A program made the position numbers and the translations under genes. Under the pieces are notes generated by a model. The model was not told where the DNA came from and searched no databases. It saw only the letters and a program-made list of their open reading frames with translations. Below, one piece after another: positions 10,413 to 11,081 of a stretch of DNA of 64,000 nucleotides (the first letter of the stretch is position 1; every line of letters starts with the position of its first letter). The stretch comes from Eledone cirrhosa (Eukaryota). The stretch is taken from the NCBI GenBank assembly GCA_964016885.1, contig OZ024743.1:97340001-97404000 (forward strand), given 5' to 3'.

Positions 10413-11081
10413 TGTAATAGAATGTAAAGGAAAAACGAACACAGATATATACATATATGTGTTCAAATCGTAAGGGACCAGATTCGCTAAGGTGAATAAA
10501 ATACTAACTATCGACAATTGGGTTTGCTTGTCTCAATTTAAGAAAAAAATCAAGAAAATAAATACAAACCAGAATTGTGGTAACTACCAATCACCCAGAC
10601 AACTTGTTGTTGTTTCGCAATGTTAATTGTGAATAGAATTACCAATTCAAGCTCATCAGTGGGTGATGAATTAGTATCCTAGACACTTCTAAGTATATTA
10701 AGAAACTGAATAGTGTGCTATATATAATAGCGCACATGGTATCCTAGCGCGTCTCACAAACTTACATCACTAAAAATAGCAGCCAGGTTTATTCGACATT
10801 TGAAATAGCTCAACAAATTAACGGAGCCGAATGTATCAAAGGTTTGTATTTATTTTCTTAATTTTTTCTTAGATTGAGACAAGCAAACCCAATTGTCTAT
10901 AGTTAGTATTCTTTTCACCTTAGCGAATCTGGTCCCTTACGATTTGAACACATATATGTATATATCTGTGTTCGTTTTTCTTTTATATTCTATTATAATA
11001 TACGGCTCGGAAATATCTCTTTCTTGGAGTTATTTTGTTGTAAGAGACTATTTTGAGTTCCTAACTCAATATATACCTTTG
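10413..11081. mobile_element. PLE-like element: 158-bp inverted repeats (10413-10570 / 10841-10997) plus 3' tail, between (TA)n tracts
   Basis: Arms are near-perfect reverse complements; the spacer contains a canonical hammerhead. Confidence 0.75.
10590..10667 (-). ncRNA. Canonical type I hammerhead ribozyme
   Basis: Minus strand: ATCACCCA-CTGATGA-GC..aattg..caatt..GC-GAAA-CAAC aacaa GTTG-TC-TGGGTGAT. 8-bp stem I, perfect core, GUC site. Confidence 0.85.

What the first reader, a model, noticed from the sequence alone, without database searches (positions are those of the whole stretch)
10413..11081. Best-preserved canonical hammerhead, looped out between 158-bp inverted repeats
Seen: the minus strand of 10590-10667 has a perfect CUGAUGA/GAAA core, 8-bp stem I, 5-bp stem III and a GUC site, with an elongated stem II. 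It lies in the 270-bp spacer, so it is not masked by an antisense arm. Inference: this is the element most likely to be still active; a minus-strand transcript would form a long hairpin with a self-cleaving loop.
Basis: partly seen in the sequence, partly recalled or inferred. Interest (0 to 1): 0.7.

Follow-up and report, generated by a model that had tools for sequence, protein, structure and literature searches.

The report
Pseudoknotted hammerhead in Penelope-style repeat

Summary
Observation confirmed: a complete type I hammerhead on the minus strand (cut after C at 10598), in the 270-bp spacer between 158/157-bp arms (149 identical). The locus is two truncated copies, joined head to head in (TA)n, of a ~507-nt non-coding unit. 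Two short patterns give 232 and 236 exact genomic hits, and two other loci match this hammerhead exactly. Copies end at two fixed sites about 85 nt apart. In 45 of 47 inverted insertions with two recognisable ends, one arm uses each site, as here: the Penelope 'inverted copy plus one-sided tail' footprint. This copy keeps core and pseudoknot, so it may cut, but it is neither the youngest nor a two-ribozyme source locus. Cleavage, expression and the partner enzyme are untested or not found. The scan has noted this architecture before on other DNA.

The parts
10365..10413 (.). (TA)n microsatellite, left half of the presumed target
   Evidence: TA flanks at most family ends
10415..10843 (-). Copy 1 of the ~507-nt unit: starts 243 nt upstream of the cut site (counted from 10840), contains the hammerhead, ends at fixed end B (no tail)
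   Evidence: L002 is the window
10841..11082 (+). Copy 2: 5'-truncated just after the ribozyme (no hammerhead), ends at fixed end A (with tail), merging into (AT)n
10413..10570 (.). Left arm of the inverted repeat (3' part of copy 1)
10841..10997 (.). Right arm of the inverted repeat (5' part of copy 2)
10998..11082 (+). One-sided tail, about 85 nt, between end B and end A; in tandem copies it runs on into the start of the next unit
10841..10843 (.). 3-nt microhomology (GGT) at the head-to-head junction
10590..10667 (-). Type I hammerhead: stem I 10667-10660/10597-10590, CUGAUGA 10659-10653, stem II GC 10652-10651/10618-10617, GAAA 10616-10613, stem III 10613-10609/10603-10599, predicted cut 3' of C 10598
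10667..10682 (-). 5' strand of predicted pseudoknot helix P (5' flank of stem I)
10634..10649 (-). 3' strand of predicted pseudoknot helix P (in loop II), 10+5 bp with one bulge
10579..10588 (-). Small conserved hairpin 3' of stem I (3 bp, AGUU loop); third pair U-A in 104 and C-G in 24 of 131 copies
11082..11135 (.). (AT)n microsatellite, right half of the presumed target

Best explanation
The locus is two truncated copies of a ~507-nt non-coding hammerhead repeat joined head to head in a (TA)n tract, likely made in one insertion by the enzyme of a Penelope-like element (PLE) acting on the repeat's RNA. Steps: (1) a source locus with tandem units is transcribed (inferred; tandem two-cut-site loci are shown). 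(2) The type I hammerhead, likely braced by pseudoknot P in place of the usual loop-loop contacts, would cut the multimer into ~507-nt monomers that a host ligase would circularise (inferred from published retrozymes). (3) A PLE RT-endonuclease would cut both strands of a (TA)n target and start reverse transcription from each DNA end at one of two fixed internal RNA sites, A and B (two fixed ends and their A+B pairing are shown; the enzyme is inferred). (4) The two cDNAs stop at variable points and are joined 5'-to-5', here through 3 nt of microhomology (junction shown, repair inferred). The inverted repeat is simply the stretch copied by both cDNAs. This copy may still cut if transcribed, but with one ribozyme it cannot release a monomer.
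For: Dispersed family: 232 exact hits of a 25-nt pattern and 236 of a 16-nt pattern from older subfamilies, reversed controls 0; 100% matches over 126 nt at two other loci. Unit: natural cut-to-cut monomers of 506, 508, 509, 511 and 518 nt at five distinct loci, 32-33% GC, longest stop-free frame 79 codons; circular fold z -4.8, -3.1, -2.7 in the 3 tested. Two fixed 3' ends abutting TA-rich sequence. Of 95 distinct loci, 60 are inverted; 41 have two canonical outer ends: 40 A+B, 1 B+B, 0 A+A. 22 further clusters add 5 A+B and 1 A+A. Direct-only copies split 17 A to 15 B. Arms of one locus look copied from one template: discordant at 27 of 356 commonly variable sites versus 41% for random pairs; 23 shared rare alleles in 13 of 37 loci, about 9 times the random rate. 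Fold: across subfamilies of 66% mean identity 95.3% of cells pair, 5 of 15 pairs change on both sides, slid controls 26-40%. Helix P: 92.3% paired versus 13-48% in slid registers, 131 of 137 copies anchored, two positions with double changes; cognate flank/loop pairs are best in the row for 4 of 6 subgroups. Literature: inverted 5'-truncated copy and one-sided tail in PLEs (PMC8557442, PMC3846280); both strands cut and extended, with two internal RT start sites defining the tail (PMC11167929); pseudoknots stabilise hammerheads, including one with a 1-bp stem II (PMC3088659).
Against: No autonomous partner was found: no unit copy runs into an ORF, and seven neighbouring PLE-like fragments share no terminal sequence with the unit. 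The tail is about 85 nt, against 30-40 bp in the papers read. Long tandem arrays, typical of published retrozymes, were not seen; at most about two units in a row. 5' starts are not enriched at the cut site (3 of 216 within 4 nt, 3.8 expected; one exactly at it). Pseudoknot-blind folding puts the hammerhead fold 4.2-7.3 kcal/mol above the ensemble for this copy. Arm similarity could also come from subfamilies active at different times or from gene conversion; the window's own arms share no rare allele. Related copies are not independent, so covariation counts overstate events. In 2 of 6 subgroups (AAG, AGAR) the cognate flank/loop pairing is not the best.
Confidence: 0.8

Rival explanations
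1. Helix P is an off-switch, not a brace: it folds first during transcription, holds the CUGAUGA strand in its loop, and keeps the ribozyme slow or inactive unless protein remodels it. The insertion story is unchanged.
For: P plus stem III, without stems I and II, is the minimum-energy pseudoknot-free fold of 10578-10690 (-26.0 kcal/mol; P pairs at about 0.3 probability). Many copies, this one included, were copied through the cut site. The anole PLE hammerhead cuts only with protein and is not needed for insertion in vitro (PMC11167929). 8 of 9 Xenopus retrozymes did not cleave (bioRxiv 10.64898/2026.07.22.740005).
Against: P starts right at the outer ends of stems I and II, where tertiary contacts sit, and shares at most one base with them. 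Stems I-III covary alongside P. Published pseudoknots also form before the second strand and are required for speed (PMC3088659). A circular template also explains read-through of the cut site.
Confidence: 0.25
2. These are only 5'-truncated pLTR stubs of a protein-coding PLE, not an independent non-autonomous unit.
For: Same footprint as PLE insertions. Most PLE insertions are 5'-truncated. The genome holds many PLE-like ORF fragments in the same TA tracts. Searches return only top or first-listed hits, so a rare master could be missed.
Against: Upstream of the hammerhead every long copy runs back into the previous unit's tail, not into an ORF; complete 506-518-nt monomers have no frame above 79 codons.
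Confidence: 0.08
3. One reading: this locus is a functional unit, a long hairpin RNA whose loop cuts itself, and the most active element of its kind.
For: The hairpin is predicted (z -27) and the core is intact and unmasked.
Against: Junction positions vary among the 60 inverted loci of 95; the arms have drifted 5-6%; younger and two-ribozyme copies exist; the hairpin context does not help the hammerhead fold (penalty 6.0 versus 4.4 kcal/mol without the second arm).
Confidence: 0.05
4. A MITE or fold-back DNA transposon with 158-bp terminal inverted repeats that happens to carry a hammerhead.
For: Inverted arms in TA-rich targets.
Against: Arm length and interior differ at every locus, 35 of 95 loci have one orientation only, ends are asymmetric (A versus B), and copies are 5'-truncated or tandem.
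Confidence: 0.02

Closest known systems
Metazoan non-LTR retrozymes (Cervera & de la Pena 2020, PMC7229834, parts 1-3 of 6 read; review PMC7761336, passages; Li, Clavereau & Pollet 2026, bioRxiv 10.64898/2026.07.22.740005, parts 1-3 of 5 read)
   Same: Non-coding, low-GC unit with one type I hammerhead, partial tandems, self-paired predicted circle, many genomic copies, PLEs proposed as the mobilising partner.
   Different: Unit 506-518 nt (170-400 nt in the 2020 paper; 51-972 bp in the 2026 preprint). Mostly dispersed, truncated and inverted rather than long arrays. Two fixed ends paired A+B. 5-bp stem III and a long pseudoknot instead of loop 1-loop 2 contacts. Expression and cleavage not shown here.
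Insertions of endonuclease-bearing Penelope-like elements (PMC8557442 and PMC3846280, passages; PMC11167929, parts 1-2 of 4; PMC4209133, parts 1-2 of 4)
   Same: Partial tandems, adjacent inverted 5'-truncated copy, tail at one end only, AT-rich or (TA)n targets, hammerhead upstream of the 3' end.
   Different: No ORF; tail about 85 nt rather than 30-40 bp; full stem III rather than the minimal motif usual in metazoan pLTRs; partner clade unidentified.
Pseudoknot-stabilised hammerheads (Perreault et al. 2011, PMC3088659, passages); Rfam RF03152 RAGATH-1-hammerhead as best, sub-threshold match
   Same: Base pairing between the outer ends of stems I and II in place of loop-loop contacts; very short stem II.
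   Different: P here is 10+5 bp, longer than the 4-6-bp examples in the passages read, and sits in a high-copy animal repeat. Below the Rfam gathering score (23.8 versus 56.3).

Membership tests
Type I hammerhead ribozyme | Conserved core (CUGANGA, GAAA, NUH) in three helices with stem I open | tested here: met
Type I hammerhead ribozyme | Helices kept by compensatory change among homologues | tested here: met
   5 of 15 pairs with double changes, none of them in stem II
Type I hammerhead ribozyme | [quoted passage not shown] | tested here: inconclusive
   Pseudoknot P covaries, but its coexistence with the core is inferred
Type I hammerhead ribozyme | Self-cleavage at C17 | not testable with these tools
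   needs an in vitro assay; no enrichment of 5' starts at the cut
Rfam hammerhead families | Score above a gathering threshold | tested here: not met
Metazoan non-LTR retrozyme | Non-coding repeat unit with one type I hammerhead | tested here: met
Metazoan non-LTR retrozyme | Tandem units with two consecutive hammerheads at some loci | tested here: met
   five distinct loci with two tandem cut sites, both cores intact at L012; the window locus has one; no long arrays seen
Metazoan non-LTR retrozyme | Expressed as linear and circular monomer RNA | not testable with these tools
   no RNA holder listed
Penelope-like element, autonomous | ORF with RT and GIY-YIG endonuclease between pLTRs | tested here: not met
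PLE-mobilised non-autonomous element | Partial tandem, inverted 5'-truncated copy, one-sided tail, microsatellite target | tested here: met
PLE-mobilised non-autonomous element | Sequence shared with the end of an autonomous PLE | tested here: inconclusive
   none among seven neighbouring fragments; no genome-wide PLE survey made
MITE / TIR DNA transposon | Fixed terminal inverted repeats and fixed length | tested here: not met

The most novel reading that the evidence does not exclude
A long-lived lineage of circular-RNA retrozymes uses a hammerhead braced by a 15-bp pseudoknot, and is inserted by a PLE dimer that primes both cut DNA strands at two fixed sites of one RNA molecule. The near-strict A+B pairing and shared-template arms would then be a genomic record of how PLE enzymes mobilise retrozymes and make their inverted repeats and tails.
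Probability: 0.45. Interest if true: 0.6.

Novelty: new variant of a known kind. Interest (0 to 1): 0.35.

Why it matters
This single locus matters little. The family offers two testable things. First, the papers read propose but do not show that PLE enzymes mobilise animal retrozymes, and they leave the origin of PLE inverted repeats and tails open; a non-coding unit with two fixed ends paired A+B in 45 of 47 cases gives a ready substrate and a sharp prediction for an in vitro insertion assay. Second, it gives a natural series of hammerheads in which stem II shrinks from 4 to 2 pairs while a long pseudoknot covaries, a motif that falls below Rfam thresholds.

Tried and rejected
Whole-window Rfam scan: the 150 listed of 315 hits were miRNA-like matches to microsatellites and palindromes, all below gathering scores. 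'Elongated stem II' helix (AAUUG/CAAUU): 97.8% paired in young copies but without double change, and its 3' strand is not kept in older subfamilies. My first count of it was out of register. My interim reading that this subfamily is degenerate because stem II fell from 4 to 2 pairs (median penalty 4.7 versus 3.2 kcal/mol) was dropped as a conclusion once P was found, since those energies ignore pseudoknots; 27 of 104 copies could not be scored there because the core pattern was broken. Search for the autonomous partner: neighbouring RT and GIY-YIG fragments and direct repeats 2.7 kb apart on C2 (two copies of the same short insertion, no PLE ORF between) gave nothing. Sequencing runs: no RNA holder listed; the three listed runs are one sample and cover the unique flank flatly, so they behave as DNA; summed depth over the hammerhead is about 10,000 against 3.5-7 on the flank, which the tool says is no copy number. 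5' starts at the cut site: no enrichment. The half-motifs at 8307-8434 and elsewhere: a guessed complete-core pattern found nothing, and three long copies show no CUGAUGA close upstream. Literature searches for a description in cephalopods and for pseudoknotted retrozyme hammerheads found none; an Octopus vulgaris repeat paper does not mention hammerheads or ribozymes in its main text (PMC13282606, passages). No supplements were read; those of PMC8557442, PMC7229834 and the 2026 preprint could list this family.

Full report
Observation. On the minus strand the core CUGAUGA lies at 10659-10653, GAAA at 10616-10613 and the GUC cut site at C 10598, with 8-bp stem I, 5-bp stem III and two Watson-Crick pairs of stem II at the core. 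It is the only strict hit in the window, and none of this quality arose in 100 shuffled windows. The arms 10413-10570 and 10841-10997 have 149 identities, 8 mismatches and 1 gap around a 270-bp spacer. Rfam's best local match is RAGATH-1-hammerhead, far below its gathering score.

It is a repeat. The window lies in a 3.0-Gb, microsatellite-rich animal genome; no call names the species. The 126 nt around the ribozyme match two other loci at 100%, with 1681 first-look candidates. A 25-nt pattern has 232 exact hits, of which 26 of the first 100 listed carry this copy's stem II variant. A 16-nt pattern from older subfamilies has 236 more. Reversed controls gave 0. Mapping the fetched loci shows a unit that returns on itself: the sequence at window 11000-11080 continues into the sequence that starts at 10840 on the minus strand. 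Five distinct loci hold two tandem cut sites, giving monomers of 506-518 nt, 32-33% GC, no frame above 79 codons, and circular folds with z of -4.8, -3.1 and -2.7 for the three tested against 30 shuffles each.

Anatomy of the locus. Copy 1 runs on the minus strand from about 10843 to 10415 and holds the ribozyme. Copy 2 runs on the plus strand from 10841 to about 11082 and starts just after where the ribozyme would be. They overlap by 3 nt of microhomology. The inverted repeat is the part of the unit present in both. Family copies stop at two fixed sites about 85 nt apart, end A and end B, mostly abutting TA-rich sequence. After dropping 15 duplicate loci of 110, 60 of 95 are inverted; 41 of these have two canonical outer ends, 40 A+B and 1 B+B. 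Among 22 further clusters, 5 are A+B and 1 is A+A. The loci were picked by likeness to the window or by pattern, not by architecture. The window is B on the left and A on the right. In 37 loci with overlapping arms, the arms disagree at 27 of 356 commonly variable sites against 41% for random pairs, and share 23 rare alleles in 7952 nt, about nine times the random rate. One template per insertion is the simplest reading; staggered subfamily activity or gene conversion could mimic it, and the window's own arms share no rare allele.

The ribozyme. Across subfamilies of 66% mean identity, stems I-III are 95.3% paired with 5 of 15 pairs changed on both sides. Stem II falls from 4 pairs to 3 to 2 along an unrooted ladder of subfamilies; since the most diverged relatives have the longer stem, this copy's form is likely derived. 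Pseudoknot-blind folding disfavours the hammerhead fold by 4.2-7.3 kcal/mol. But loop II (10649-10634) is complementary to the 5' flank of stem I (10682-10667) over 10+5 bp. This helix P is 92.3% paired in 131 anchored copies of 137, against 13-48% in slid registers, with C-G/U-G/U-A and A-U/U-A exchanges at two positions; one of those two is only 69% paired. Cognate flank/loop pairs are the best in their row for 4 of 6 subgroups. P starts at the outer ends of stems I and II, where published pseudoknots hold the two stems together and allow very short stem II (PMC3088659, passages). That P coexists with the active core is inferred; an off-switch role remains possible.

Is this copy the active one? 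It keeps core and P, so it may cut. But it is 2.3% from its subfamily majority, 7th of 38 copies in a set biased towards it; its arms differ by 5-6% where other loci differ by 1.5-2.4%; and it has one ribozyme. The long hairpin is predicted but does not help the hammerhead fold. 5' starts show no excess at the cut site, 3 of 216 within 4 nt against 3.8 expected (a test suggested by note e1-9585305). This copy begins 243 nt upstream of the cut, so its template was uncut, multimeric or circular.

Mechanism. Shown: non-coding unit, conserved fold, two fixed ends, A+B pairing, variable 5' junctions, TA-rich flanks. Inferred: transcription, cleavage, circularisation, and insertion by a PLE protein that cuts both strands and starts at two internal RNA sites, as the anole element does in vitro (PMC11167929). 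In that study the start site did not differ between strands, so the strict A+B pairing needs an asymmetry not yet shown. The partner was not found.

Comparison. It works like a non-autonomous PLE: inverted truncated copy, one-sided tail and microsatellite targets are described for PLEs (PMC8557442, PMC3846280). It meets the sequence-level features of metazoan non-LTR retrozymes (PMC7229834; PMC7761336; bioRxiv 10.64898/2026.07.22.740005), but expression as a circle is untested and long arrays were not seen. It is not an autonomous PLE and not a MITE. I found no description of this family, or of a pseudoknotted retrozyme hammerhead; supplements were not read. Earlier notes of this scan, consulted after I had the A+B result and after I had P, report the same twin-arm footprint and a pseudoknot-braced hammerhead on other DNA; they are not independent support. 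A look-up by sequence found nothing.

Verdict. Real motif, ordinary copy, known kind of element with two useful twists: the long pseudoknot and the near-strict A+B ends. Interest 0.35.

Noticed in passing
window 8230-8434, 7224-7339, 57772-57832, 60994-61134: A second high-copy palindromic family in (TA)n carries a hammerhead-like 3' half (GAAAC, stem, GUC) but no CUGAUGA close upstream, even in three long copies; many copies are 99% identical and most palindromes pair a long end with a short end. A re-ordered hammerhead, as earlier notes report for this genome, was not tested.
   Followed up: partly
L165, L172, L184: A diverged subfamily of the finding's family reads CAGAAGA in place of CUGAUGA in all three copies, with its own stems and a shifted pseudoknot.
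   Followed up: no
L032: Both arms of one insertion share the same core-breaking change, suggesting that a cut-dead RNA was inserted or that one arm converted the other.
   Followed up: partly
window 8440-8781; 8941-8996 with 10302-10357; 8993-9046 with 9800-9852: Further palindromic or inverted repeats packed between TA tracts just left of the finding.
   Followed up: no
window 29671-30715 and 31992-35497: Tandem arrays of 37 bp (28 copies) and 33 bp (106 copies).
   Followed up: no
window 36689-43283: Broken non-LTR retrotransposon reading frames with RT-like and endonuclease-like motifs, named by eye from recall.
   Followed up: no
window 50402-53050 (+): 882-codon stop-to-stop frame, low complexity, with a hydrophobic stretch; probably a host exon; no Pfam match.
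   Followed up: partly
L111, L113, L114, L115, L117: Several PLE-like RT and GIY-YIG fragments sit within 1-2 kb of family copies in the same TA tracts; L113 and L117 share a 3' region with a minimal hammerhead-like motif. Clade labels were not established.
   Followed up: partly
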